Notes under the pieces: generated by a model | Database searches by the model: none | The model's input: the letters and a program-made list of their open reading frames with translations, nothing else | Told to the model about the DNA's origin: nothing | Position numbers and translations under genes: made by a program | In this document: one piece after another, positions 1-11,839 of the stretch | How the letters are laid out: every line of letters starts with the position of its first letter | How positions within the stretch are numbered: position 1 is the first letter of the stretch | Origin: Promethearchaeota archaeon | Lineage (GTDB): Archaea; Asgardarchaeota; Lokiarchaeia; Sigyniarchaeales; SOKP01 | Direction of reading: 5' to 3' | Length of the DNA: 13,236 bases | Assembly: GCA_008080735.1 (NCBI GenBank) | Contig: SHMW01000100.1 | Location: 1-13,236 of the forward strand

Positions 1-267
1 TCTGAATTCTCTCTCAACAATGCCTTTGTGAACACTATAACAGAATTTAGGTAAATCTTCCATGCCCAAACTATTTTTAATCCTAAGTTTTAAGAGAAAG
101 CGTCGGCTACACATTGGAGTAAGTGTGCAAGCTATACGATCAACCTGGCACTCTTTGAAGCAGAGTTCATCGATTCTTTCAATGAGTAGATTAAGCAGTT
201 CTGAATTAAATCGCTCATTTACCGGGTTGCTGAGGAAGCTTAAGATATGCTTTTCTTCTAAGGGCAT
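1..267 (-). CDS. Cys-rich hypothetical protein, 5' part only (runs off the left edge; not in the ORF track)
   Basis: Manual translation from ATG at 267 is open to base 1 (89 codons): MPLEEKHILSFLSNPVNERFNSELLNLLIERIDELCFKECQVDRIACTLTPMCSRRFLLKLRIKNSLGMEDLPKFCYSVHKGIVEREFR. A TATA-like TTTATATA lies upstream at 303..296, followed by an AT-rich intergenic region. Confidence 0.85.
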   Translation of the reverse strand, partial: MPLEEKHILSFLSNPVNERFNSELLNLLIERIDELCFKECQVDRIACTLTPMCSRRFLLKLRIKNSLGMEDLPKFCYSVHKGIVEREFR

Positions 268-295
268 TGGGAGTTGATAGATACTATTAGTTTAA

Positions 296-303
296 TATAT
301 AAA
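296..303 (-). promoter_or_regulatory. Putative archaeal TATA box (TTTATATA) for the 267..1 gene
   Basis: Matches the TTTAWAWA consensus about 29 nt upstream of the ATG. The AT-rich background lowers specificity. Confidence 0.45.
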
Positions 304-527
304 TGTATAAAATCAAATAATTTTTATTGTTATTCTTTATTTCTCTAATCTGAGGTTATTTCACATTATTAGTTATTTGAAATTTAATTCTCATCTTATA
401 ACATATTGCTAAAATATTAAATAAATGATTAAGATTATCTAATCTGAATAATCATAAAAAATTATTAAAACCATTATTAGTATTATATTTTTAACTTATA
501 TTAAGAAGAAAATATAGATCATCAATT

Positions 528-2006
528 ATGCTTCGACAAACCCATATCCTTTATTCTGGTAAACGAGTGTTTACTCATACATTTGCGATGGCCCTAAGAG
601 ATGAAGATCTAAAAAATGTGATCGGAGCCTTACAGCCACAGATCAATATGCCTATTCCTGGCAAAATCCTTCATCGACCTATTTCTGAACAACAAGTTTT
701 CCATTGCGGCTATGGGGATTTTTATTTTCTCATGGTTGCTGATATGGTGGATTCAATTAAATATATGGAAGAAATTCTTGAAAAAGCAATAAAAAAATTT
801 AAAGAATTATTTCCTGACATAGGTACACTGCAGAATTCTGATTCCAAACGAAAACACTTTATCGATTTTTTATATAAGCTTCAAGCAGAATTACATTCAA
901 AAATAGCAATAATAGGGCCAACCAACGCGGGAAAGACCACCTTATATGAAATGCTAACCAATAAAAAAGAAGAACGAAGCATAATGAATTTTGCAAAAGC
1001 TTCTCTACTAAATCTCTATGATTTACAGTTTGATGTGTGGGATTTCCAATTAAAAGATAATTTCTCACTCTTGTGGTCGAAATTTGTAAGCGGATCTGAT
1101 CTTGTCATTTTCATATTCGATGCCTCTAAATATAATTTGAAAGTACTTGATCAATTTCTCACTCTTAAAAGAAAAGAAAGTCAACTTTCCAAATTCATTA
1201 TCATTGCCAATAAAATTGATTTAATTGATGATGAGACTATTGAAAAAATTGAAAATGAATTAGAAATAGAGAACATTGAAAAATTATCTTTAGAGGATTC
1301 AAAGGCAAAACAAACCATACTTGAACTAATTAGTAAAGCACTTCAACTTAAGAAAAAGTTGCCTAACAATTTCGATGATTTAAGAGCTGAAGCTGAAAAT
1401 CTTTATGAAGAAAAGAATTTGGGGAAAGCTTTGGCAAAGTATAAAGAATTGATAAATATCTCAAATTCATATCAACATTTTGAATATTTAAAAGAATTTA
1501 AAGAGACAGCGAAGCAAATAGAAAATAGAATTCAAGAGCGAGCGGAGATTCGCAGAAAAATTCAGAGGAAAAAGAAATTTGCCCCACCCCAAAAAATTAA
1601 GTTCACTAAAAAAATTCAAGTGAAAGACCTTCCAAAAAATCATATTTCGTCAAAAACAATTGAAGCTGAAAATCATAAAGAGCACAAAGACAATTCTACC
1701 CAGAAAAGAAGACTTCGACCGTCAGATGTAAAGATAGATTTAAAATTTAATAATAACCCAGACTTAAAAAAGGAAGAAAGTCAACCCAAGAAACCGCATC
1801 CTGAAGAGAACTATGAAAGTATTGACGATGTTGAAGATATCCCCCAGTTATTGCATGATATGATTAAAAGTAGAGGAAGTCAGCTTAGTTTAAAATTGTG
1901 TATCCAATATATTAACGAGATGGAATCATCTCTTAAAAGAGAGCTTAATCTGGAAGATTTAAAAACTGCCGCAGATTATTTCATCAAGCAAGAAATTTCA
2001 AGATAA
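528..2006 (+). CDS. Multidomain Ras-superfamily (Arf/Rab-like) GTPase: N-terminal longin-like domain, G domain, MIT/TPR-like helices, basic/low-complexity linker, small C-terminal helical domain
   Basis: G1 GPTNAGKTT (915-941), G3-position WDFQL (1038-1052), LVIFIFDAS strand, G4 NKID (1209-1220). The first ~120 aa show the longin-type beta-beta-alpha-beta-beta-beta-alpha-alpha pattern. Helical segment FDDLRAEAENLYEEKNLGKALAKYKELI resembles MIT/TPR. Confidence 0.85.
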   Translation: MLRQTHILYSGKRVFTHTFAMALRDEDLKNVIGALQPQINMPIPGKILHRPISEQQVFHCGYGDFYFLMVADMVDSIKYMEEILEKAIKKFKELFPDIGTLQNSDSKRKHFIDFLYKLQAELHSKIAIIGPTNAGKTTLYEMLTNKKEERSIMNFAKASLLNLYDLQFDVWDFQLKDNFSLLWSKFVSGSDLVIFIFDASKYNLKVLDQFLTLKRKESQLSKFIIIANKIDLIDDETIEKIENELEIENIEKLSLEDSKAKQTILELISKALQLKKKLPNNFDDLRAEAENLYEEKNLGKALAKYKELINISNSYQHFEYLKEFKETAKQIENRIQERAEIRRKIQRKKKFAPPQKIKFTKKIQVKDLPKNHISSKTIEAENHKEHKDNSTQKRRLRPSDVKIDLKFNNNPDLKKEESQPKKPHPEENYESIDDVEDIPQLLHDMIKSRGSQLSLKLCIQYINEMESSLKRELNLEDLKTAADYFIKQEISR

Positions 2007-2028
2007 AGGTAATTGATGTGAGAATATA

Positions 2029-2844
2029 TTGAATATATGTCTAATTTTTTTTTCTGCGACAAATAATACTAAAACTATAGGGGAAGTTATTACGCGAGAA
2101 ATCGAGAAAAATAGTAGATCTGTGAATCTATTATTAATTGATATCACTCCCTATTCTGTCCGCAATCAGAAAGTCAATTTAAAACAATGTGAGAAATTCA
2201 TTTTTGGATTTCCTGTATATGGATGGAGGGCACCAAGCGTTGTGAGAGAATGGCTGAAAACTCTGGAGGGGAAGGGGAGAGAATGTGCTATGTTCTTTAC
2301 TTATGGGGGGATAAATTCTGGCGTGGTTCATTATGATACGTATCAAATCTTAGAAGAAAATGGTTTTAAAGTACTTTCTTCAGCAGAATTTATCGCAAGC
2401 CATACTTATAATTTAGGTGGATGGAATGTCTTGGAAAATAGACCTAATGATGAGGATTTTAAGATAGCTCGCCAATATGCCCAATCGATTTTAAAAAAGT
2501 TCCAGGAATCAGATTTACATTCCTTTCAGATTAAGCCACATGAATATTCAGATAAAACTTTAAAACGCATCGAAAATAATCCAAAAAGAATGGTGAACCC
2601 CCCGAGATGGGCTGCAGAATGCGATGTATGTGGGCTATGTGATAATTTATGCCCCACGAATGCAATTGATGCTGAAAATCAGATAATAAATGAGGAAAAA
2701 TGTATTCGGTGTTTTAGTTGCGTATTAAACTGCCCTGAATCGGTTTTAGAAGTAGATGATTTAACTCGACTATATAAAATGGCATTAAAAGTAGAACATT
2801 TACTAGAAAAAGAAATCAATAACCGCAAAAGTAAAATCTTATGA
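2029..2844 (+). CDS. Flavodoxin-like domain fused to a 2x[4Fe-4S] ferredoxin (EFR1-family-like)
   Basis: N-terminal FFSATNNT loop, GFPVYGW and FFTYGG flavodoxin motifs. C-terminal CDVCGLCDNLCP and CIRCFSCVLNCP. TTG start. Confidence 0.9.
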   Translation: MNICLIFFSATNNTKTIGEVITREIEKNSRSVNLLLIDITPYSVRNQKVNLKQCEKFIFGFPVYGWRAPSVVREWLKTLEGKGRECAMFFTYGGINSGVVHYDTYQILEENGFKVLSSAEFIASHTYNLGGWNVLENRPNDEDFKIARQYAQSILKKFQESDLHSFQIKPHEYSDKTLKRIENNPKRMVNPPRWAAECDVCGLCDNLCPTNAIDAENQIINEEKCIRCFSCVLNCPESVLEVDDLTRLYKMALKVEHLLEKEINNRKSKIL

Positions 2845-2870
2845 AGAGTTTTCCAAGATAATATATATTC

Positions 2871-2890
2871 ATTTATATCATGAAATAAAT
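2871..2890. promoter_or_regulatory. 20-bp near-perfect palindrome directly upstream of the carboxypeptidase gene (possible operator)
   Basis: ATTTATATCA|TGAAATAAAT: 9 of 10 positions pair, and it ends 9 nt before the ATG at 2900. Confidence 0.35.
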
Positions 2891-2899
2891 TATATTCTG

Positions 2900-4393
2900 A
2901 TGTCGCAAATTAAAGAACTCATAATTCATTTTTCGAAACTTAAACAGCTGAAATACATAAACAATCTTTTAAATTGGGACCTTCAAGTTTATATGCCCGA
3001 TGGCTCAAATAAGGGACGCGCTGAATTAATCTCTCTGGTTGGAGAATTGGTTCATAAAAAGTTAATATCAAATAAAACTGAAACCTTAATTTCGGAAGCG
3101 GAACAAAAAAAAGATTTAAGTCTAATCGATGCGGCTATTCTTAGAGAAGCTAAAAGGGAATATCAAAAAGCGATAAAGATCCCCACAGATTTAGTAGTAG
3201 AGATCGCAAAAAATGCCTCCTTAGGTCATAAGGCTTGGGAGAAAGCGCGAAAAAAAAGTGACTTTTCTATTTTTAGACCATACCTTACAAAAATGATTGA
3301 TCTTCAAAAGCAATACGCTGACCTGATTAATATCGGAGAGAATCGATATGATTCCTTATTGGATGATTATGAACCTGGCGCAACTAAGAAATGGCTTTCC
3401 TCGCTTTTTAATAACCTTGCTCCCCAGCTACAGACTATTTTAAAAAAATTGGAAACTTCAGGGGAAGAGCCAGATTCATCCATACTAGAAAATGTATATG
3501 ATGCAAAAAAACAATGGGAATTTTCCAATAGTGTGATTGAAAAGCTTGGATTTGATTTTTCTATAGGAAGGCAAGATAAATCTGTCCACCCATTCACCAC
3601 TGCCGTAGCTTCTGAAGATGTGAGAATAACCACACGGATTATTGAAAACTTTTTGCCGGCAGGATTATTTGGTACGATTCATGAATGCGGACATGCGCTA
3701 TATGATATGGGGTTTATGGAGGAAATTCACGGCACTAATTTAGCAGACGGAAGTTCTTTGGGAATACACGAATCGCAATCACGCATGTATGAAAATTTTG
3801 TTGGGAGAAGTAAGGAATTTTGGAAGTATTGGTATCCACGATTAAAGAATCTTTTTCCTGAAAATTTAGGAGATGTTGCTCTGAATCACTTTTATAAGGC
3901 GATAAATACCGTGAAACCTTCATTGATAAGGGTCGAGGCTGATGAAATCACCTATTCTTTGCATATAATATTACGTTTTGAAATAGAATCCTTGATTTTT
4001 GAAGATCTAATAGAAGTGGAAGAATTGCCTCAAGTCTGGGATGAAAAAATGACTGAATTACTTAATATAACACCTCCAAATGATGCGAAAGGAATTCTAC
4101 AAGATGTCCACTGGTCTGGAGGGGCGTTTGGGTATTTTCCTACTTATACGCTTGGGAATCTCTATGCCGCTCAGATTTACAATGACGCTTTAACTAAAAA
4201 TCCAAATATGCCTTTTGAGTTTACTTCAGGAAATTTTAATACCCTTTTACAATATCTAAGAGAGAATGTCCATCAATATGGGAGTATATTTCATCCCCGG
4301 GATCTTATTCATAAGATTACGGGAGAAGCCTTAAACCCAGAGTATTTCATAACCTATTTGGAGGAGAAATTTTATCCAATTTATAGAGTATAA
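2900..4393 (+). CDS. Metallocarboxypeptidase, family M32 (carboxypeptidase Taq/PfuCP-like)
   Basis: HECGH (HEXXH), HPF, DVRITT, HESQS, IRVEADE, QDVHWS, GYFPTYTLG. Length ~500 aa is typical of the family. Confidence 0.97.
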   Translation: MSQIKELIIHFSKLKQLKYINNLLNWDLQVYMPDGSNKGRAELISLVGELVHKKLISNKTETLISEAEQKKDLSLIDAAILREAKREYQKAIKIPTDLVVEIAKNASLGHKAWEKARKKSDFSIFRPYLTKMIDLQKQYADLINIGENRYDSLLDDYEPGATKKWLSSLFNNLAPQLQTILKKLETSGEEPDSSILENVYDAKKQWEFSNSVIEKLGFDFSIGRQDKSVHPFTTAVASEDVRITTRIIENFLPAGLFGTIHECGHALYDMGFMEEIHGTNLADGSSLGIHESQSRMYENFVGRSKEFWKYWYPRLKNLFPENLGDVALNHFYKAINTVKPSLIRVEADEITYSLHIILRFEIESLIFEDLIEVEELPQVWDEKMTELLNITPPNDAKGILQDVHWSGGAFGYFPTYTLGNLYAAQIYNDALTKNPNMPFEFTSGNFNTLLQYLRENVHQYGSIFHPRDLIHKITGEALNPEYFITYLEEKFYPIYRV

Positions 4394-4414: not shown

Positions 4415-5821
4415 TCACCAAATTGGGTCAAGTGTCCATAGATCTAACTTTTGAATTTCTATTTCTCCAGCGTCGCTGAAAATGCTAGCTCTAAACCCAT
4501 TTTTATTTCTAAGGTAAATTCTGCTCGAGATGCAAAATTTATTATTTAGATAAATCTCGAAAACGGAATGATCGATGAATATATGGAAATTTATTATAGA
4601 TGAATATGATAATAGATCTATCTGTGCCTTTTCCTTGCCCACCCAAAATCGTTTCTCATCTCTATCATAACCAAAAGAATACCCTTTATCAATTTTTTCT
4701 TGAGAATTTAGACAAATACCAAATCTATTCGAAGATCCTACATCTATTTCTCCCTTGATCTCTATTGCGGATACATAATTTTCTTCTGGAAATAAACATT
4801 GGATGTTATTGATTGACTGATTTGTTAGCTGATAATGCTGATTTCGAAGTCTTTTTAATTCTGGTAAAGGCTCAATAGCCAATTCTTCATTTGGATCAAG
4901 GAAGAGTACTCTTGGCAAGCTTAAGCAACCATTCCATCCAGAAATATCTCCTCCCCCCTTAATCCAACCCAAAAGAATTATTCTCTCCTTTTCCTGGTCT
5001 TCAAGTATATTGGTCGCATAATAACATTTACCATAATCGAGAATGTTCCATTTTTCCGGCTTAAACTCTCTATTTTCATATTCTCCTATAGAATAAATCA
5101 CTCGACCATGTGGGGAAACTATAAGCATATGTCGATTCCCAAGTTTGAAAAAGTTTGGACATTCCCAATTTCTACCACGTTTCTTCGAGCCAATAATAAG
5201 AGGATGGAGAAATTTCCAATCGTATAAATTTTCAGACATATATAACAATACAACCGGTCTAGTGGGAGATACTAGGTGACCTCCCAATACAGCATACCAA
5301 GAATCACCTTCTTTCCAGAGAAACGGATCTCGCCAATCCTTAACCTCAAGATCTTCATGGATTGCCAAGCTCATTACAGGATTTTCGTTTGCTTGGCTAA
5401 ATTTAGTCATTGTTTCATTTCCTATAGCAATCCATTGTTCTGCTCCATCTTTGGGTAATTTATCAGGTCCAATACTAGTATATATTATTATAGGTGTTCC
5501 TTCTTCATTAATAATACAGTCTCCTGAAAAACAATGAGTTTCAGATCTTTCACTGCAAGGTTTCAATGCGATAGGAAGATGCTTCCAATAAACTAAATCT
5601 TTTGATATAGCGTGCCCCCAATGAATATTCCCCCATGTATCTTCAAAGGGATTAAACTGATAAAATAAATGATATGTTCCATTATAAAAAATAGGGCCAT
5701 TGGGATCGTTCATCCAATACGCAAGAGGGAGAAAATGGTAGACAGGTCTTTGAGGGTCTTGTTGAACTTTAGAATTAATTTCTCTTAAATTTTTTTGGAT
5801 ATTTATCGATCGATTATTCAT
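4415..5821 (-). CDS. Glycoside hydrolase family 32 (beta-fructofuranosidase / sucrose-6-phosphate hydrolase-like), cytoplasmic
   Basis: Catalytic motifs WMNDPNG, WRDP, WECP, plus WGHAIS, FSG, LSLPR and a C-terminal beta-sandwich (IFIDHSVFEIY). No signal peptide. Confidence 0.96.
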   Translation of the reverse strand: MNNRSINIQKNLREINSKVQQDPQRPVYHFLPLAYWMNDPNGPIFYNGTYHLFYQFNPFEDTWGNIHWGHAISKDLVYWKHLPIALKPCSERSETHCFSGDCIINEEGTPIIIYTSIGPDKLPKDGAEQWIAIGNETMTKFSQANENPVMSLAIHEDLEVKDWRDPFLWKEGDSWYAVLGGHLVSPTRPVVLLYMSENLYDWKFLHPLIIGSKKRGRNWECPNFFKLGNRHMLIVSPHGRVIYSIGEYENREFKPEKWNILDYGKCYYATNILEDQEKERIILLGWIKGGGDISGWNGCLSLPRVLFLDPNEELAIEPLPELKRLRNQHYQLTNQSINNIQCLFPEENYVSAIEIKGEIDVGSSNRFGICLNSQEKIDKGYSFGYDRDEKRFWVGKEKAQIDLLSYSSIINFHIFIDHSVFEIYLNNKFCISSRIYLRNKNGFRASIFSDAGEIEIQKLDLWTLDPIW

Positions 5822-6118
5822 TTAACAAAATGTTTATACTATTTTTTTCTATTATTTAATTCAAATATGATATTCTTAAAAATATTGGCTAATCCAGCTA
5901 ATTAAAAAGTTTGAAACATGAATAGACTTCTTTCTTAGTTGGTAAAATTTGGTTTTGAGCTAAGATCTAGTAATAATTTCCAAATTATTATTAAAAATCC
6001 TTATATGAATTTGTGTGTAAAAATATGAGAAGATCTTTATCGAAGAGTATAATAGCGATGTTATTTTTTAAATTTAACTAAAAGTGAACCTTTAAAAACG
6101 AGTGGTAAGATTATAAAT

Positions 6119-6757
6119 GTGATAAGTGTGACTGCCCTTGAAAGTGTTAAAAAAGTCAATATTATTTGTCCCTATTGTAAGCATAATTTCCAAAAGGACA
6201 TAGAGGGAGGCAATAATTCAACAAAACTGTTATCAATCCTCATAAAAGACCATCCGAATAGTCAAGATTGCGGTCCTTTTATTGCATTTATCGATAAAAA
6301 TGGTTCTCATCGCGGCTCTCAAAAGATTGACAATGTGGATGAGGTCGATTCGGAAAAAAGTAAGGTGATCGAGGACGCGAGGAGCCGAATTGAAGAGATG
6401 GATGATAAACTACGATTTTATCATCTTAAAATTCCCCCAGAAAAGGGAAGGGCATTCGATCATAAAGTAGCTAAAGTAAGCGATCGTTCTTTTATGAGCA
6501 GTGCGTTCTATATGTATCTTATACAATATTTATTGAATTGCGAAGCTGAAAGCACTTTTGGTATGATTTGCTTGAATGATCATAAGGATCTTGATGGAAT
6601 TTTGGTGTATGGTAAATATTTAGGAATCCTCTATACGATGTATTGGAAGGATCAAATCTCCATTAAGCAAAAATCCTGGGATGATCTCAAAGGATATACG
6701 AATCTAGCAGTAGAAAAGCTGCTAGACTTTTACGATTTAATCGATTTATTATTTTAA
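6119..6757 (+). CDS. Hypothetical protein with an N-terminal Zn-finger-like motif and a C-terminal alpha/beta domain (possibly longin/roadblock-like)
   Basis: CPYC...H..SQDC...FIDKNGSHRG at the N-terminus, a helical linker, then a mixed alpha/beta domain. GTG start at 6119 (alternative GTG at 6128). Confidence 0.75.
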   Translation: MISVTALESVKKVNIICPYCKHNFQKDIEGGNNSTKLLSILIKDHPNSQDCGPFIAFIDKNGSHRGSQKIDNVDEVDSEKSKVIEDARSRIEEMDDKLRFYHLKIPPEKGRAFDHKVAKVSDRSFMSSAFYMYLIQYLLNCEAESTFGMICLNDHKDLDGILVYGKYLGILYTMYWKDQISIKQKSWDDLKGYTNLAVEKLLDFYDLIDLLF

Positions 6758-6802
6758 ATGCTTTCTAATATAACATTTTTCTAGCTTTTCTTGGGAGAGA
6801 TT

Positions 6803-6813
6803 TTTAATATATA
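6803..6813 (+). promoter_or_regulatory. Putative TATA box for the methionine synthase gene (short or leaderless transcript)
   Basis: TTTAATATATA about 20-30 nt upstream of ATG 6834, with no obvious Shine-Dalgarno. Confidence 0.4.
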
Positions 6814-6833
6814 TCAAGTTATCCTAATAAATA

Positions 6834-7895
6834 ATGGTTGATTCGATTGATTATCCAATTATTGATGATATTGGAAGTATCCCCCTTCCCGCGTATGCCA
6901 GGGAAGAAGATTTCAAAGAGATGTATTGGGATCTTTACAAAGCGGTAATCAGCGGAGCTAACTGGGATGAACTTATGCTCCATCGAGGATTTAAGTCCAC
7001 AATTATTCGACCTATAATCGATTCTTTTCAACTTAAAATTAACTGCGGTATCGAAATTCCCACATATTCAAGACATTGGGATATGCATACTCCATTTCTT
7101 TTTCCAATAGAAAATTACGCCATCCAGCCATACCATATTGACAATACGAAAGCAAGAATAATAGAGGTCGACATACTAAGAGAATATGCAAAACATCATT
7201 TTGAGGAGACAGGCATAAAGACTCAATGCAGAGTGAGTGTGACGGGTGCGCTGGAATTATATTTGAAATTAAAAGGATTTGCAGTTTATAAGGACATCGC
7301 TCTCAATTTAGCGCGAAGTATAAACTCGTTCTTTAAGAAAGCAATTTATTCTGATAGATATTTTGAAACTCCTGTAATAGCTATCGATGAGCCTTCAATA
7401 GGGATTATTACTTTTAATCTTATATCAGATGATGATATTGTAGATATATTGGAAAAAGAATCATCAGGATTAAATCAGGAAATTCAAATACATCTACATT
7501 CACTTGCCAAAAGCGAAATTGCCTTAAATTGTAAGAACATTGATGTGTTGACTTGTGAATACGCCAGTAGAACCGATCAGAAAATCCCTAAAAAGATATT
7601 AGAGAAATACGATAAGTTTATGCGAGTTGGCATAACGCGCACCAATATTTCAAATTTAATAGCCGACCAAATTGAGGTCGGTATTCCTCCAAAACACTTC
7701 GCAAACGACGAGGGACTTATCTCTATTATAGACTCAAAAAATAGAATAAAAAAAAGATATAAAGAAGCGATAAAATATTATGGGGATAGATTAAGATATG
7801 TGGGTCCGGATTGTGGACTGATTGGATGGCAGAGTCATAAGGTTGTCTCAGCATTATTGAGTAGAACTGTTTCTGCTGTTAAAGAATTGAGATAA
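6834..7895 (+). CDS. mesC: Single-barrel (core MetE-like) folate-independent methionine synthase, MesC-type
   Basis: DDIGSIPLP, IDEPSIG, IQIHLHS (His-x-His at the MetE His-x-Cys Zn site), CEYA, RVGITRTNI, VGPDCGL. 353 aa is half the length of MetE. The motif set matches my recollection of Methanosarcinales-type MesC, so the subfamily is less certain than the fold. Confidence 0.8.
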   Translation: MVDSIDYPIIDDIGSIPLPAYAREEDFKEMYWDLYKAVISGANWDELMLHRGFKSTIIRPIIDSFQLKINCGIEIPTYSRHWDMHTPFLFPIENYAIQPYHIDNTKARIIEVDILREYAKHHFEETGIKTQCRVSVTGALELYLKLKGFAVYKDIALNLARSINSFFKKAIYSDRYFETPVIAIDEPSIGIITFNLISDDDIVDILEKESSGLNQEIQIHLHSLAKSEIALNCKNIDVLTCEYASRTDQKIPKKILEKYDKFMRVGITRTNISNLIADQIEVGIPPKHFANDEGLISIIDSKNRIKKRYKEAIKYYGDRLRYVGPDCGLIGWQSHKVVSALLSRTVSAVKELR

Positions 7896-7970
7896 ATACA
7901 AATTCTTAGAATTTTAGGGAATTAGCTTAATACCAAAATAATTCATTTTAATAAGAAAATAATAAAGTAG

Positions 7971-7977
7971 AAAAAAA
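7971..7977 (-). terminator. Putative oligo-T terminator downstream of the thiolase
   Basis: T7 on the minus strand about 30 nt after the stop at 8006, in a convergent intergenic gap. Confidence 0.4.
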
Positions 7978-8005
7978 TAATTAAAAGTAATAATTTTAGA
8001 GCAAG

Positions 8006-9199
8006 TTAGAGATTTTCCACTATAGTTGCTTCTGAAACGCCACCGCCACCACACAGTGTAGCAAGTCCGTAAGATACATCTCGCTTCTTCATTTCGTGGA
8101 TAAGTGTAACGATTATTCTCGCTCCTGTGCATCCTACGGGGTGTCCTAAGCCTATTCCAGAGCCATTGACGTTTGTTTTTTCAAAGTCCCAACCTAATTG
8201 CTTTCCTACAGCGACATACTGTGCTGCGAAAGCTTCATTACATTCTACCAGTCCGAGATCTACATATTTCATATTAGCTTGTTTAAGTGCTAATGGGGCG
8301 CTATACATGGGCCCCATTCCCATATATTTCGGGTCATTACCGATTTTACTTATCGTGACGATTTTAACAAGCGGGTCTAACCCAAGCTCTTCCGCTTTTG
8401 CTTGCGTTGTTAGCAATGTCATGCATGCTCCGTCATTAATCCCTGATGAATTACCAGCGGTTACAGTTCCATCTTTTTTAAAGACAGGAGGTAATTTTTG
8501 GAGTGCTTCCATAGTTAAACCTTCCCGGAAGTGCTCATCTTTATCAAAAGTGTAGGTTTTCTTTCTAGTTTTGACTTCTACTGGGATGATCTCATCTTTA
8601 AAACGTCCCGATTTTGTAGCTTCTTCCGCATTATTCTGCGAATCAAGCGCGGCTTTATCTTGCTCTTCTCTCGATATATTGTATTTATCTGCAACATATT
8701 CTGCGGTCATGCCCATAATATATCCTTCTCCAAATACTTTACTTCCAGCGTGGAGTCCTTCCATTATTCCACATTTCATCTCTTTATTACGTAAACGTGC
8801 ACCCCAACGAGCAGAAGGGATGTAATAACTCACATTACTCATACTTTCTGTCCCTCCCGCCAACACGACCTCTGCCTGGTTCGTCATTAAGTCGACCATG
8901 CCAGCTCTCACAGCTTCCATCGCAGAAGTGCATACTCGATTAATCGTCATAGCAGGAACTTCATAAGGAATATCTGCAAGAAGCGCTGCAACACGCGTCA
9001 CATTCATTTCTTCTTGCGGCTCCATACAACATCCCGCTTTAATATCAGAAATGACCGATGGATCAATACCCGTCTCTTCAATGCAATCTTTAATACAATA
9101 ACTCAGCAGTTTACTTGCATTATACGGAAGCAACGAGCCGCCAAAAGTACCGATGGCGGTTCTTTTTGCATAACAAATTACGATATCATTATCTCCCAT
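8006..9199 (-). CDS. atoB: Acetyl-CoA C-acetyltransferase (classical thiolase)
   Basis: RTAIGTFGG, TINRVCTS (nucleophile Cys), AGGTESMS, GTVTAGNSSGINDGA, NEAFAAQ, GHPVG, LCGGGG. ATG at 9199 preferred over the GTG at 9211, which lies within an SD-like GAGTGA. Confidence 0.95.
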   Translation of the reverse strand: MGDNDIVICYAKRTAIGTFGGSLLPYNASKLLSYCIKDCIEETGIDPSVISDIKAGCCMEPQEEMNVTRVAALLADIPYEVPAMTINRVCTSAMEAVRAGMVDLMTNQAEVVLAGGTESMSNVSYYIPSARWGARLRNKEMKCGIMEGLHAGSKVFGEGYIMGMTAEYVADKYNISREEQDKAALDSQNNAEEATKSGRFKDEIIPVEVKTRKKTYTFDKDEHFREGLTMEALQKLPPVFKKDGTVTAGNSSGINDGACMTLLTTQAKAEELGLDPLVKIVTISKIGNDPKYMGMGPMYSAPLALKQANMKYVDLGLVECNEAFAAQYVAVGKQLGWDFEKTNVNGSGIGLGHPVGCTGARIIVTLIHEMKKRDVSYGLATLCGGGGVSEATIVENL

Positions 9200-10273: not shown

Positions 10274-11278
10274 ATGGCTGATGTATATAATGAGATCAAT
10301 CTCAAATTAGTTTTTTTGGGCAGTGGAGGGGTTGGCAAGACTTCCTTAGTAAATGCGCTAACGGGTAAAGTAGTACCAGATCGATATATGCCCACTATTG
10401 GGTCCACAATTAACAAGAAAGAATATTTATTGGAGGATTCGAATTATTTAGTCTCAGTAAATTTATGGGATATCGGAGGTCAGAGAAGTTTCAATCCGCT
10501 TAATCCTGTATTTTTTAGTAATGTTGACATCGCGTTTCTAATTTACGATATAACTAAACCCCAAGAAACAATTGCCGAACTTAATGAGATTTATTTGCCC
10601 AATCTCCTACAAAATACAGGAGAATGTTTAATATTTATTTTAGGTAATAAAATTGATTTGGAGTTTGAAAAAAAAGCGATTAAAGATATTCTAAAGCAAG
10701 AAAGATTTGATAAATATCCTAATATACTCGTCTCTGCTTTACATCAGGAGAATATTGAAGCTGCCGTGGAATATGCCACATACAACTATTTCATTGAAAT
10801 GAGTGAAGAGCTGAAGGAAAATAATGTTAAGATCAATGCTGAAAAGCTTCTGGATGTGTATGGAAAATCCAAAGTAGAGTTGGAAAAGATATTAATTAAT
10901 CTTGAAGATATTAGCTCCATGAAAATTCAGAAAAAGGCACCCGTAAAAGTATCTAAGAAAAAGCTCGAGAATACAGAGATGGAGTTGGAGAGATATCGTT
11001 TAATCCAAGAAAGATTAGAGGATTTAGAAACAATAAAAGAGCAAATTCGAGCATCATTTCGCAATAATTTAATCACAATTGAAGATATGATCCAAGAACT
11101 AAAAACGACACCAATAAGTTCGTTGATTAAAAACATTAACAAAACTCTTACTCAACTGGATTATCTAAAAGGCGATTTTGAACTCAAACTTAATTCATTA
11201 CTCAATATGGATAAATTAGCCAAACAAAAGGAGCCTCCATTATCATTAAAATCTACTACAGAATCGGAGGGAAACTGA
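10274..11278 (+). CDS. Rab-like small GTPase with a C-terminal coiled-coil/helical-hairpin extension
   Basis: Complete motif set: G1 GSGGVGKTS, G2 YMPTIG, G3 WDIGGQ, G4 GNKID, G5 VSAL. Followed by ~160 aa of helical, heptad-rich tail. No CAAX/CC motif. Confidence 0.92.
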   Translation: MADVYNEINLKLVFLGSGGVGKTSLVNALTGKVVPDRYMPTIGSTINKKEYLLEDSNYLVSVNLWDIGGQRSFNPLNPVFFSNVDIAFLIYDITKPQETIAELNEIYLPNLLQNTGECLIFILGNKIDLEFEKKAIKDILKQERFDKYPNILVSALHQENIEAAVEYATYNYFIEMSEELKENNVKINAEKLLDVYGKSKVELEKILINLEDISSMKIQKKAPVKVSKKKLENTEMELERYRLIQERLEDLETIKEQIRASFRNNLITIEDMIQELKTTPISSLIKNINKTLTQLDYLKGDFELKLNSLLNMDKLAKQKEPPLSLKSTTESEGN

Positions 11279-11284
11279 TTTAAA

Positions 11285-11839
11285 ATGCCTAAAAAGGAAA
11301 AAGAAGAAATCGTTTCATTAGCTGAATTTAAAAAATTAAATGTCAAAGTCAAGGATCTTAAAAAACTTATCAACTTAAACAACGAGAAACATAAGGAAAT
11401 CACGGATTCGATTAAACAACAAATTACAGCGCTAGATAAGAAAATCGATAGGACAAATGAGCAGATTGAAGCGCAAATTAAAACTCAAGAAGAAATCATT
11501 ATGGATATGATTCATAAATTTAATGAAGAATTTCTGAAAAATAAGAGCGCTCTCATGGCAAAGATCGATGATATTAAATCGCAACAAGATGTTCTCAAAA
11601 TTTCTTACAGTATCAATGAAAAAAAGTTATTAGATAAAGTCAAAGGGTTAATCCATGAAGAAATGAAAAAATGTGTTCAAGATAATGAAAAAGAGATATT
11701 GATGGACATTTGGATACGCGAATTGAAAAATATTATAAATGACATAGAACAACTAAAAAAAATGGATCCAAAAGAGTTTGCCCTACAAATTGACGAAATT
11801 TCCGCCACTATTGATCTCTTTAAGCAAAAACTCAAATAA
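11285..11839 (+). CDS. All-helical coiled-coil protein, probably co-transcribed with the upstream GTPase
   Basis: Begins 6 nt after the GTPase stop, with GGAGG at 11266-11270. K/E/I/L-rich heptad pattern throughout and almost no Gly/Pro. Confidence 0.85.
   Translation: MPKKEKEEIVSLAEFKKLNVKVKDLKKLINLNNEKHKEITDSIKQQITALDKKIDRTNEQIEAQIKTQEEIIMDMIHKFNEEFLKNKSALMAKIDDIKSQQDVLKISYSINEKKLLDKVKGLIHEEMKKCVQDNEKEILMDIWIRELKNIINDIEQLKKMDPKEFALQIDEISATIDLFKQKLK

What the first reader, a model, noticed from the sequence alone, without database searches (positions are those of the whole stretch)
528..2006. Longin-like + small GTPase + MIT/TPR-like fusion: trafficking-type domains in one archaeal polypeptide
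Seen: ~120-aa alpha/beta N-terminal domain (528 to ~895), G domain (~900-1345), three-helix segment (~1368-1540), basic/disordered linker and terminal helical domain. Established: longin domains partner small GTPases in eukaryotes (SRalpha-SRbeta, TRAPP, Mon1-Ccz1, DENN), MIT domains bind ESCRT-III, and longin-GTPase fusions have been reported in Lokiarchaeia. Inference: this larger architecture could link a GTPase-fold module to membrane-remodelling machinery.
Basis: partly seen in the sequence, partly recalled or inferred. Interest (0 to 1): 0.7.

Follow-up and report, generated by a model that had tools for sequence, protein, structure and literature searches.

The report
Longin-fused switch-dead Asgard GTPase scaffold
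This is a real, conserved gene of Loki-type Asgard archaea. It joins an adaptor-type longin domain, a small GTPase that keeps its nucleotide pocket but has lost its on/off switch, a TPR/MIT-like helical bundle and a small tail domain. It is most likely a fixed docking scaffold, and nothing links it to ESCRT-III.

Summary
ORF 528-2006 (+) encodes a 492-aa protein with five parts:
- a sigma-adaptin-type longin domain (aa 1-122);
- an ArfL-type G domain (aa 123-275);
- a compact three-helix bundle (aa 282-350);
- a conserved basic motif followed by a disordered linker;
- a small three-helix C-terminal domain.

The G domain keeps G1 (GPxNAGKT) and G4 (NKxD). It has lost the switch-I Thr and the DxxGQ of switch II, which now reads WDFQLKDNF. 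That rebuilt segment is the best-conserved stretch of the protein.

The helical bundle superposes on MIT domains, but with scores no better than generic TPR pieces. By sequence it is TPR-type. No result ties it to ESCRT-III.

The gene is single-copy in 35 of 40 sampled genomes of its own GTDB family. A further-eroded form occurs in the sister family. It was not found in 25 other Asgard families.

It sits in a conserved cluster with a Cys-cluster orphan, a HEAT/coiled-coil protein, an AbrB-helical protein and a longin-Zn protein.

Best reading: a non-cycling, nucleotide-holding scaffold of that module. Longin-GTPase fusions are already in print, and this scan has found the same family and cluster in other genomes. 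I class it as a new variant of a known kind.

The parts
528..2006 (+). Whole ORF, 492 aa plus stop: longin, switch-dead G domain, TPR/MIT-like bundle, basic motif, linker, C-terminal domain
528..893 (+). Longin domain, sigma-adaptin type (aa 1-122), with invariant M1, R3, Q4, A20, D72, D75, Q119
   Evidence: Topology bb-a-bbb-aa. AP-2 sigma profile hit at E 2.4e-4. 12 of 31 members hit Clat_adaptor_s weakly. Atlas TM 0.77 and 0.76 to AP-1 sigma and Longin clusters.
894..1352 (+). Small-GTPase (ArfL-type) G domain, aa 123-275
   Evidence: Pfam Arf 6.5e-15. GerdArfR1 8oun at E 1e-7. VIA Z 14-16 to many G domains.
915..938 (+). G1/P-loop GPTNAGKT (aa 130-137), intact
963..1007 (+). Switch-I equivalent (aa 146-160, ..ERSIMNFAKAS..) without the G2 threonine
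1029..1088 (+). Switch-II equivalent FDVWDFQLKDNFSLLWSKFV (aa 168-187). The DxxG glycine is Leu and the catalytic Gln position is Lys. This is the most conserved stretch of the protein (78% mean pairwise identity).
1209..1220 (+). G4 NKID (aa 228-231), intact
1371..1577 (+). Three-helix TPR/MIT-like bundle (aa 282-350)
   Evidence: Models. VIA: katanin p60 MIT Z 8.8, rmsd 1.3 over 65; S. solfataricus Vps4 MIT Z 8.3, rmsd 1.1 over 60; interleaved with TPR rows. The paralogue profile matches consensus TPR.
1566..1634 (+). Conserved basic motif RKKKFAPPQKIKFTKKIQVKDLP (aa 347-369)
   Evidence: Consensus KKKFxxPxxIKFxKKIxVKxLP. 54% mean identity against 21% in the linker. 13 K+R in aa 340-372.
1635..1832 (+). 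Variable, disordered, charged linker (aa 370-435)
   Evidence: pLDDT below 50. 21% mean identity and variable length.
1833..2003 (+). Conserved three-helix C-terminal domain (aa 436-492), fold family unresolved
268..527 (.). AT-rich divergent intergenic region shared with the upstream Cys-cluster gene
   Evidence: same divergent layout in L009-L013, L044, L046
1..267 (-). First 89 codons of the conserved neighbour (Cys-cluster protein of about 320-338 aa), cut by the contig end
   Evidence: 83% identity to aa 1-89 of P0264

Best explanation
The gene encodes a non-cycling scaffold protein derived from the Asgard-specific longin-ArfL GTPases.

Shown by sequence, models and searches:
- The protein has an N-terminal sigma-adaptin-type longin domain and a G domain that keeps the P-loop, the Mg-linked Asp of WD, and NKxD.
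- The G domain lacks both gamma-phosphate sensors (switch-I Thr and switch-II Gly) and the catalytic Gln.
- The replaced switch-II segment is under the strongest purifying selection in the protein.
- A TPR/MIT-like three-helix bundle follows, then a conserved polybasic/hydrophobic motif, a disordered tether and a small helical end domain.
- The gene is single-copy and restricted to one order.
- It lies in a fixed cluster with a Cys-cluster orphan, a HEAT/coiled-coil protein, an AbrB-helical protein and a longin-Zn protein.

Inferred:
- The domain still holds a guanine nucleotide as a structural cofactor but cannot toggle between GDP and GTP shapes.
- The frozen switch face, together with the longin platform, therefore forms a permanent docking surface.
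- The helical bundle and the tethered C-terminal domain recruit further partners, most likely the products of the clustered genes.
- The basic motif may contact an acidic surface such as membrane or nucleic acid.
For: Architecture.

Motif states in 31 orthologues and 112 relatives. G1 and G4 are kept. G2 and G3 are replaced by IMNFAK and WDFQLKDNF.

Selection: the switch-II equivalent has 78% mean pairwise identity, against 45% overall and 70% for the P-loop.

Tree: switch-dead proteins form one side of a starred branch (SH-aLRT 96) against canonical longin-ArfL paralogues. A sublineage additionally lost NKxD.

Distribution: 35 of 40 genomes of the same family with one copy each, 3 of 3 in the sister family, 0 of 158 elsewhere in the phylum at E <= 1e-40.

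Gene cluster: all five cluster genes in six of seven loci of the family and four of them in L044. In the sister family, L043 has GTPase, Cys protein and HEAT/cc on one strand, and L045 keeps only the AbrB-helical neighbour.

The same genome also keeps a canonical paralogue (IPTITGD, WDFAGQEQF), so ordinary switching longin-GTPases coexist with this one.
Against: No biochemical data exist. Nucleotide binding, absence of hydrolysis and every partner are inferred.

Conserved gene order is not contact, and no physical interaction among the cluster products was tested here.

I could not inspect the model's inter-domain geometry, so a longin/switch-face contact in cis is not shown.

Some GTPases hydrolyse without the canonical Gln. 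A nearly invariant Gln174 sits two residues upstream of the lost Gly.

The own genome's copy of the cluster is broken by contig ends. The HEAT partner was not found there (genome 93% complete).
Confidence: 0.55

Rival explanations
1. It is still a working GTPase switch that uses non-canonical chemistry. For example, Gln174, Lys176 or a residue supplied by its own longin domain or by a dimer partner could replace the lost Gln, as in GAP longins or dimer-activated GTPases.
For: The P-loop, the Asp of WD and NKxD are invariant or nearly so. Gln174 is nearly invariant. The longin domain has invariant R3 and Q4. Longin domains with an arginine finger act as GAPs in FLCN, GATOR1 and CSW (PMC12290439).
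Against: Both gamma-phosphate sensors (switch-I Thr and switch-II Gly) are gone in every orthologue, which removes the usual loaded-spring mechanism. MLRQ, including R3 and Q4, is equally conserved in the canonical paralogues, and R3 is present in AP-2 sigma (MIRF). It is therefore not a specific compensation. The sister lineage went on to lose NKxD, as expected once nucleotide cycling no longer matters.
Confidence: 0.2
2. It is the Arf-plus-sigma part of an archaeal adaptor/coat-like assembly. In this reading a sigma-adaptin-type longin domain, an Arf-like domain, the neighbouring HEAT solenoid and a second longin protein together resemble an AP/COPI hemicomplex.
For: The longin profile matches AP-2 sigma best in the PDB and AP-1 sigma by structure. 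The neighbour P0265 has HEAT/Cnd1 repeats (Cnd1 27.7 bits against a 26.4 cut-off). The 197-aa neighbour hits Longin weakly (E 0.03-0.07). Atlas clusters of 197-198-aa Promethearchaeota proteins share the longin fold.
Against: The parts list is only loosely alike. Two cluster members, the Cys orphan and the AbrB-helical protein, have no coat counterpart. The G domain belongs to the Asgard-only ArfL group, which Vargova et al. place apart from the Arf family. No membrane element is evident. An earlier check in this scan (e1-2537019, not repeated here) found the HEAT protein no more adaptin-like than ordinary HEAT proteins.
Confidence: 0.1
3. One reading: the three-helix bundle is a true MIT domain that binds ESCRT-III tails, coupling the GTPase-fold module to membrane remodelling.
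For: The bundle superposes on whole MIT domains: katanin p60 Z 8.8, rmsd 1.3 A over 65 of 72 residues; S. solfataricus Vps4 MIT Z 8.3, rmsd 1.1 A over 60 of 74; also MITD1, Vps4p, NRBF2 and USP8. The genome has two ESCRT-III genes with MIM1-like C-termini and a Vps4.
Against: These Z values lie in the range the tool flags as a common helical arrangement, and TPR or designed bundles score the same. Foldseek gives no match at E <= 0.001. The Pfam MIT model detects Vps4 in this genome but not this ORF. Only 3 of 31 orthologues give sub-threshold MIT hits. The homologous segment of the paralogues (hhalign probability 98%) matches consensus TPR proteins and no MIT protein. ESCRT genes are not in the conserved neighbourhood.
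Confidence: 0.05

Closest known systems
Asgard longin-ArfL GTPase fusions (Klinger et al. 2016, as cited in PMC4917890; 'L-G' and 'L-G-?' architectures of MK-D1 in Tran et al. 2024, PMC10933270)
   Same: An N-terminal longin domain is fused to an Arf-like (ArfL) G domain in Lokiarchaeia. Canonical members share the MLRQ start and the helical segment after the G domain. One such paralogue lies in the same genome.
   Different: This orthologue group has lost the switch-I Thr and DxxGQ and rebuilt switch II as WDFQLKDNF. It also carries its own conserved basic motif and C-terminal domain. I found no description of this in the papers I read.
AP-complex sigma subunits / COPI zeta (Pfam Clat_adaptor_s, longin fold)
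   Same: Best sequence-profile and structural match of the N-terminal domain. The alignment runs end to end from residue 1.
   Different: The match is below Pfam's own threshold in every member. Here the domain is fused to a G domain and is not a free small subunit packed on an adaptin trunk.
Asgard ArfR GTPases (GerdArfR1, PDB 8OUN/8OUM; Vargova et al., bioRxiv 10.1101/2024.02.28.582541)
   Same: Closest solved G domain by sequence (E 1e-7, aa 113-256).
   Different: ArfR proteins have an N-terminal amphipathic helix and intact switches and bind membranes. ArfL is reported as a separate, Asgard-only group. This protein has a longin domain in place of the helix and has dead switches.
Pseudo-GTPases that keep a G fold as a scaffold (from my own knowledge, not checked here: CENP-M, the dynein light intermediate chain, Rnd/RhoH-type constitutively bound proteins)
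   Same: A G fold retained with degenerate switch or catalytic motifs and used as a fixed interaction module.
   Different: No homology beyond the G fold. Whether this protein binds nucleotide at all is untested.
MIT domains of Vps4, katanin and MITD1, and single TPR units
   Same: Three-helix bundle geometry over the whole domain. TPR-like A/Y/L packing residues.
   Different: No significant sequence match to MIT. Relatives match TPR. There is no evidence that it binds ESCRT-III.
SR-alpha SRX domain with SR-beta (eukaryotic SRP receptor)
   Same: A longin-like domain is paired with an Arf-related GTPase. Pfam SRPRB hits at the threshold (25.7 against 25 bits). SR-beta is among the structural matches (Z 14.0-14.3).
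   Different: SR-beta is an intact switch and binds SRX in trans. SR-beta does not stand out from other G domains in the searches. There is no SRP context.

Membership tests
Longin domain (sigma-adaptin / Clat_adaptor_s type) | Secondary-structure order b-b-a-b-b-b-a-a (no N-terminal helix, unlike roadblock) | tested here: met
   DSSP of the AF2 model: E2-9, E12-18, H25-40, E48-52, E55-62, E65-72, H77-94, H98-121
Longin domain (sigma-adaptin / Clat_adaptor_s type) | Structural superposition on known longin domains | tested here: met
   Atlas model aa 1-122: TM by query 0.77 to the AP-1 sigma cluster and 0.76 to a Longin (PF13774) cluster, TM by row 0.72
Longin domain (sigma-adaptin / Clat_adaptor_s type) | Sequence match to the family model above its threshold | tested here: inconclusive
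   Profile against PDB: AP-2 sigma at E 2.4e-4 over 1-102. Pfam Clat_adaptor_s only sub-threshold, in 12 of 31 members, best E 8e-4. The window's own copy gives no hit.
Ras-superfamily small GTPase | G1 P-loop GxxxxGK[ST] | tested here: met
   GPTNAGKT, with G130, G135 invariant and K136, T137 nearly so
Ras-superfamily small GTPase | G2 switch-I threonine | tested here: not met
   ERSIMNFAKAS; no Thr in any orthologue at the position aligned to the PTI(T/G) of canonical paralogues and of 8oun
Ras-superfamily small GTPase | G3 DxxG with the catalytic Gln | tested here: not met
   WDFQLK: Leu at the Gly position and Lys at the Gln position, conserved across the orthologue group
Ras-superfamily small GTPase | G4 NKxD | tested here: met
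   NKID; N228, K229 invariant and D231 nearly so. Lost in the sister lineage.
Ras-superfamily small GTPase | G-domain fold and family HMM | tested here: met
   Pfam Arf 55.5 bits against a 22.3 cut-off. VIA Z 14-16, rmsd about 3 A over about 145 residues.
Arf family proper (eukaryotic Arf/Arl/Sar and Asgard ArfR) | N-terminal amphipathic helix directly before the G domain, and placement inside the Arf/ArfR clade | tested here: inconclusive
   A 122-aa longin domain occupies the N-terminus. I made no tree with Arf/ArfR sequences. Vargova et al. report ArfL as separate from Arf/ArfR.
MIT domain (PF04212) | Asymmetric three-helix bundle of about 70-80 residues | tested here: met
   Z 8.3-8.8, rmsd 1.1-1.6 A over 60-67 residues of 72-78-residue MIT domains. 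TPR and designed bundles score equally.
MIT domain (PF04212) | Sequence match to the MIT family model | tested here: not met
   The window's copy gives no hit. 3 of 31 orthologues hit at best E 0.031. The MIT HMM run over the own genome finds Vps4 (52.8 bits) but not this ORF.
MIT domain (PF04212) | Binds MIM helices of ESCRT-III | not testable with these tools
   Needs a binding assay; see Tried and rejected for the co-fold attempt
TPR-like helical repeat | TPR-type helix A/helix B sequence signature | tested here: inconclusive
   Orthologue profile: SPAG1 TPR at E 0.027 and OGT TPR at E 0.2. Homologous paralogue profile (hhalign probability 98%): consensus TPR proteins at E 1e-5 to 2e-13 summed over repeats, with no single stretch significant. 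TPR_8 and TPR_2 hit weakly in 11 of 47.
Pseudo-GTPase (nucleotide-binding, non-switching class) | G fold with lost catalytic or switch residues, kept under purifying selection | tested here: met
Pseudo-GTPase (nucleotide-binding, non-switching class) | Binds nucleotide but does not hydrolyse or switch | not testable with these tools
   Requires purified protein

The most novel reading that the evidence does not exclude
The switch-dead longin-GTPase is the hub of an undescribed Asgard assembly. In this reading a sigma-adaptin-type longin domain, a frozen Arf-like domain, a HEAT solenoid with a coiled coil and a second longin protein pack together like an adaptor hemicomplex. That would make it an archaeal analogue or forerunner of AP/COPI-type adaptors, held permanently in the 'recruited' state.
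Probability: 0.1. Interest if true: 0.8.

Novelty: new variant of a known kind. Interest (0 to 1): 0.4.

Why it matters
Asgard archaea carry dozens of small GTPases and longin or roadblock proteins, and almost none has an assigned partner or role. This one is unusual in three ways:
- Its switch was lost once and the replacement surface was then frozen by selection.
- It is single-copy.
- It keeps the same four uncharacterised neighbours across an order.

[quoted passage not shown] It also gives a natural series (canonical, then switch-dead, then NKxD-lost) that shows how a GTPase becomes a pseudo-GTPase.

It does not currently bear on ESCRT biology. The basic architecture, a longin-ArfL fusion, is already known, and this scan has reported the same family and cluster from other genomes. 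The added value here is modest.

Tried and rejected
1. Fold searches with the full 492-aa model (Foldseek PDB; VIA wide) returned only G-domain matches. They say nothing about the other domains.

2. Co-fold of the helical bundle (alignment A2, aa 272-352) with the C-terminal 69 residues of the genome's best ESCRT-III homologue (L016). Verdict: no answer. The score was 0.02 against a mark of 0.32, and the controls were not run. This is neither for nor against binding.

3. C-terminal domain (aa 428-492). Pfam, NCBIfam and a PDB profile search gave nothing meaningful. hhalign against 11 AAA+ lid segments of the same genome gave P 0.16. hhalign against its four histones gave P 0.009, probability 4.6%, and required an 11-residue deletion in helix 2. 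The fold family is unresolved. The domain was barely tested in the structure searches, which the helical bundle dominated.

4. The Atlas feature search with the longin domain gave no usable hit.

5. The neighbour P0264 (Cys-cluster protein) has no Pfam, PDB or Atlas relative.

6. The rest of the cluster in the window's own genome. Contig C100 ends inside the Cys-cluster gene, and 80 more codons lie on a 240-bp contig, C99. The HEAT/coiled-coil partner was not found with this query in the 93%-complete assembly.

7. The cluster look-up for organism names of the orthologues returned none. I therefore cannot confirm from my own calls that the cultured Lokiarchaeia carry the gene.

8. Considered and set aside: an SRX/SR-beta-like pairing. 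SR-beta does not stand out among G-domain matches.
Full report
**What is there.**
The window is AT-rich (about 31-39% G+C). It carries an ATG-initiated ORF at 528-2006 (+) of 492 codons. The start is secure: all 31 aligned orthologues begin MLRQ.

A word-indexed search found more than 120 clusters of full-length relatives at 40-74% identity over 99-100% of the length. Submitters named them Lokiarchaeota or Promethearchaeota, and sometimes Thor- or Hodarchaeota. An exhaustive search of 1.8 billion representatives gave 422 relatives.

An AF2 model built from 31 orthologues has mean pLDDT 82 and pTM 0.64.

**Domain 1, aa 1-122: longin.**
- The model gives b1-b2-a1-b3-b4-b5-a2-a3, which is the longin order.
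- A profile of the domain finds AP-2 sigma as the only significant PDB match. E is 2.4e-4 and the alignment runs from residue 1 to 102 in both.
- Twelve of 31 members give sub-threshold Clat_adaptor_s hits.
- The ESM Atlas model of this same sequence superposes on an AP-1 sigma cluster (TM 0.77) and on a eukaryotic Longin cluster (TM 0.76 and 0.72). It also superposes on Asgard longin-Arf proteins and on 197-198-aa Promethearchaeota proteins.

**Domain 2, aa 123-275: G domain with a dead switch.**
- Pfam Arf scores 55.5 bits. The closest solved sequence is GerdArfR1, 8OUN/8OUM. Structure searches give Z 14-16 to many G domains.
- G1 (GPTNAGKT) and G4 (NKID) are intact and invariant or nearly so.
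- The switch-I Thr is absent (..ERSIMNFAKAS..).
- G3 reads WDFQLKDNF, with Leu at the DxxG glycine and Lys at the catalytic Gln.
- This is not decay. The switch-II equivalent is the most conserved stretch of the protein, with 78% mean pairwise identity. The whole protein has 45% and the P-loop 70%.

**Relatives fall into three states.**
All three start with MLRQ and share the helical segment after the G domain.
- Canonical: IPTITGD, WDFAGQEQF, NKQDL. The window's genome has one of these on contig C106.
- Switch-dead but with NKxD kept. This is the present group.
- Switch-dead with NKxD also lost.

In a quick ML tree of longin plus G domain, the switch-dead proteins form one side of a branch with SH-aLRT 96 against the canonical ones. 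The NKxD-lost set is a subclade with support 96. The tree is rooted at the midpoint only. The canonical state is taken as ancestral because it is universal among GTPases.

**Domain 3, aa 282-350: three-helix bundle.**
A model of aa 268-492 has pLDDT above 90 over this bundle.
- Foldseek finds nothing at E <= 0.001. Its top rows are rich in MIT domains, for example VPS4B MIT with TM 0.65 by target.
- VIA-align gives katanin p60 MIT Z 8.8 (rmsd 1.3 A over 65 of 72 residues). It gives S. solfataricus Vps4 MIT Z 8.3 (rmsd 1.1 A over 60 of 74). MITD1, Vps4p, NRBF2 and USP8 also appear.
- TPR fragments and designed bundles are interleaved at Z 7-8.7. This is a range the tool warns is common for helical bundles.
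- The Atlas returns TPR clusters.

By sequence the picture is different.
- The window's copy has no MIT hit, and 3 of 31 orthologues reach only E 0.03.
- The MIT HMM finds Vps4 in this genome but not this ORF.
- The homologous segment of the paralogues (hhalign probability 98%) hits TPR models and consensus-TPR structures and no MIT protein.

The segment is therefore a compact MIT/TPR-like bundle, not a generic coiled coil. Membership of the MIT family is not supported.

**The tail.**
- A conserved basic/hydrophobic motif (consensus KKKFxxPxxIKFxKKIxVKxLP, aa 347-369) comes first.
- A variable, disordered linker follows (21% identity, pLDDT below 50).
- A conserved three-helix domain closes the protein (aa 436-492).
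- I could not assign that last domain to a family.

**Distribution.**
Among 201 sampled genomes of the phylum, the gene is present once in 35 of 40 genomes of the window's GTDB family. The further-eroded form is present at 29-30% identity in 3 of 3 genomes of the sister family. It was not found at E <= 1e-40 in 158 genomes of 25 other families.

**Context.**
- In seven loci of the family, the gene is transcribed divergently from a Cys-cluster orphan (318-338 aa) followed by a HEAT-plus-coiled-coil protein.
- These two are followed, convergently, by an AbrB-like/helical protein and a 197-aa longin-plus-Zn protein. L044 showed no longin-Zn match.
- A Taq-type M32 carboxypeptidase usually lies downstream.
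- In the sister family, locus L043 has GTPase, Cys protein and HEAT/coiled-coil protein on one strand. The linkage thus survives rearrangement. Locus L045 keeps only the AbrB-helical neighbour.
- In the window, 1-267 (-) is the first 89 codons of the Cys-cluster gene (83% identity to P0264). The contig ends there, and the rest of the cluster is unassembled in this genome.
- ESCRT-III (two genes) and Vps4 lie on other contigs.

**Mechanism.**
Shown: the architecture, the motif states, the selection pattern, the single-copy distribution and the conserved cluster.

Inferred:
- The pocket still holds a guanine nucleotide, because the P-loop, the WD Asp and NKxD are kept.
- The protein cannot sense the gamma-phosphate or hydrolyse in the usual way.
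- It therefore acts as a permanently 'set' docking scaffold. Its frozen switch face, longin platform, helical bundle and tethered end domain bind partners, most plausibly the cluster products.

I put this at 0.55. The rivals are:
- a non-canonical but working switch (0.2);
- an adaptor/coat-like assembly (0.1);

**Comparison and novelty.**
Longin domains fused to lokiarchaeal Arf-like GTPases were reported in 2016 (five fusions; PMC4917890, citing Klinger et al.). They were catalogued for MK-D1 in 2024, where 26 of 74 GTPases carry longin or roadblock domains (PMC10933270). Vargova et al. place this ArfL group apart from the true Arf/ArfR family.

I found no printed description of the switch-dead orthologue group, its extra domains or its cluster in the papers I read.

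This scan has already reported the same family and the same cluster from other genomes. My independent tests agree with those notes.

New here are three things. The first is the three-state motif series with a tree. The second is the measurement that the rebuilt switch II is the best-conserved segment. The third is the evidence that the helical module is TPR-type by sequence.

Verdict: real, conserved, and a new variant of a known kind, of moderate interest.

Noticed in passing
window 1-267 (-), and G000 contig C99 1-240: The divergently transcribed neighbour is a Cys-cluster protein with no Pfam, PDB or Atlas relative. It is better conserved than the GTPase: 83% against 53% identity to the same related genome. 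It is cut by the contig end, and its next 80 codons lie on a 240-bp contig.
   Followed up: partly
window 6119-6757 (+): This 212-aa protein has an N-terminal CxxC...H...C / FIDxNxxHRG metal-binding module. The module matches the C-terminal module of the cluster's 197-aa longin-Zn protein (BLASTP E 0.003), so the same module occurs with the domain order swapped.
   Followed up: partly
window 10274-11839 (+): A second small GTPase (334 aa; Ras 77 bits, Roc 74.6 bits) is followed by a 184-aa helical protein. The pair recurs a few kb downstream of the longin-GTPase in related loci L009 and L012.
   Followed up: partly
window 2029-2844 (+): A 271-aa flavodoxin-like protein with two 4Fe-4S motifs sits between the longin-GTPase and the M32 carboxypeptidase. 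In four related loci (L009-L012) the M32 gene follows the GTPase directly.
   Followed up: no
L043 (G165:C2) 5518-9144 (-): In the sister family, the NKxD-lost form of the GTPase, the Cys-cluster protein and the HEAT/coiled-coil protein lie head to tail on one strand instead of divergently.
   Followed up: partly
L002 (G000:C106) 1024-2913 (+): The same genome has a canonical longin-ArfL paralogue with intact IPTITGD, WDFAGQEQF and NKQD, a similar helical segment and a long low-complexity tail. The similarity to the query starts 78 nt upstream of the first ATG/GTG/TTG, so its true start is unclear.
   Followed up: no
window 1833-2003 (+): The C-terminal domain ends ...SLKRELNLEDLKTAADYF.., which recalls the loop-2/helix-3 motif of archaeal histones (GRKKLTIEDMDMAI). 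The profile comparison with this genome's histones is weak (P 0.009, probability 4.6%) and needs a shortened helix 2.
   Followed up: yes
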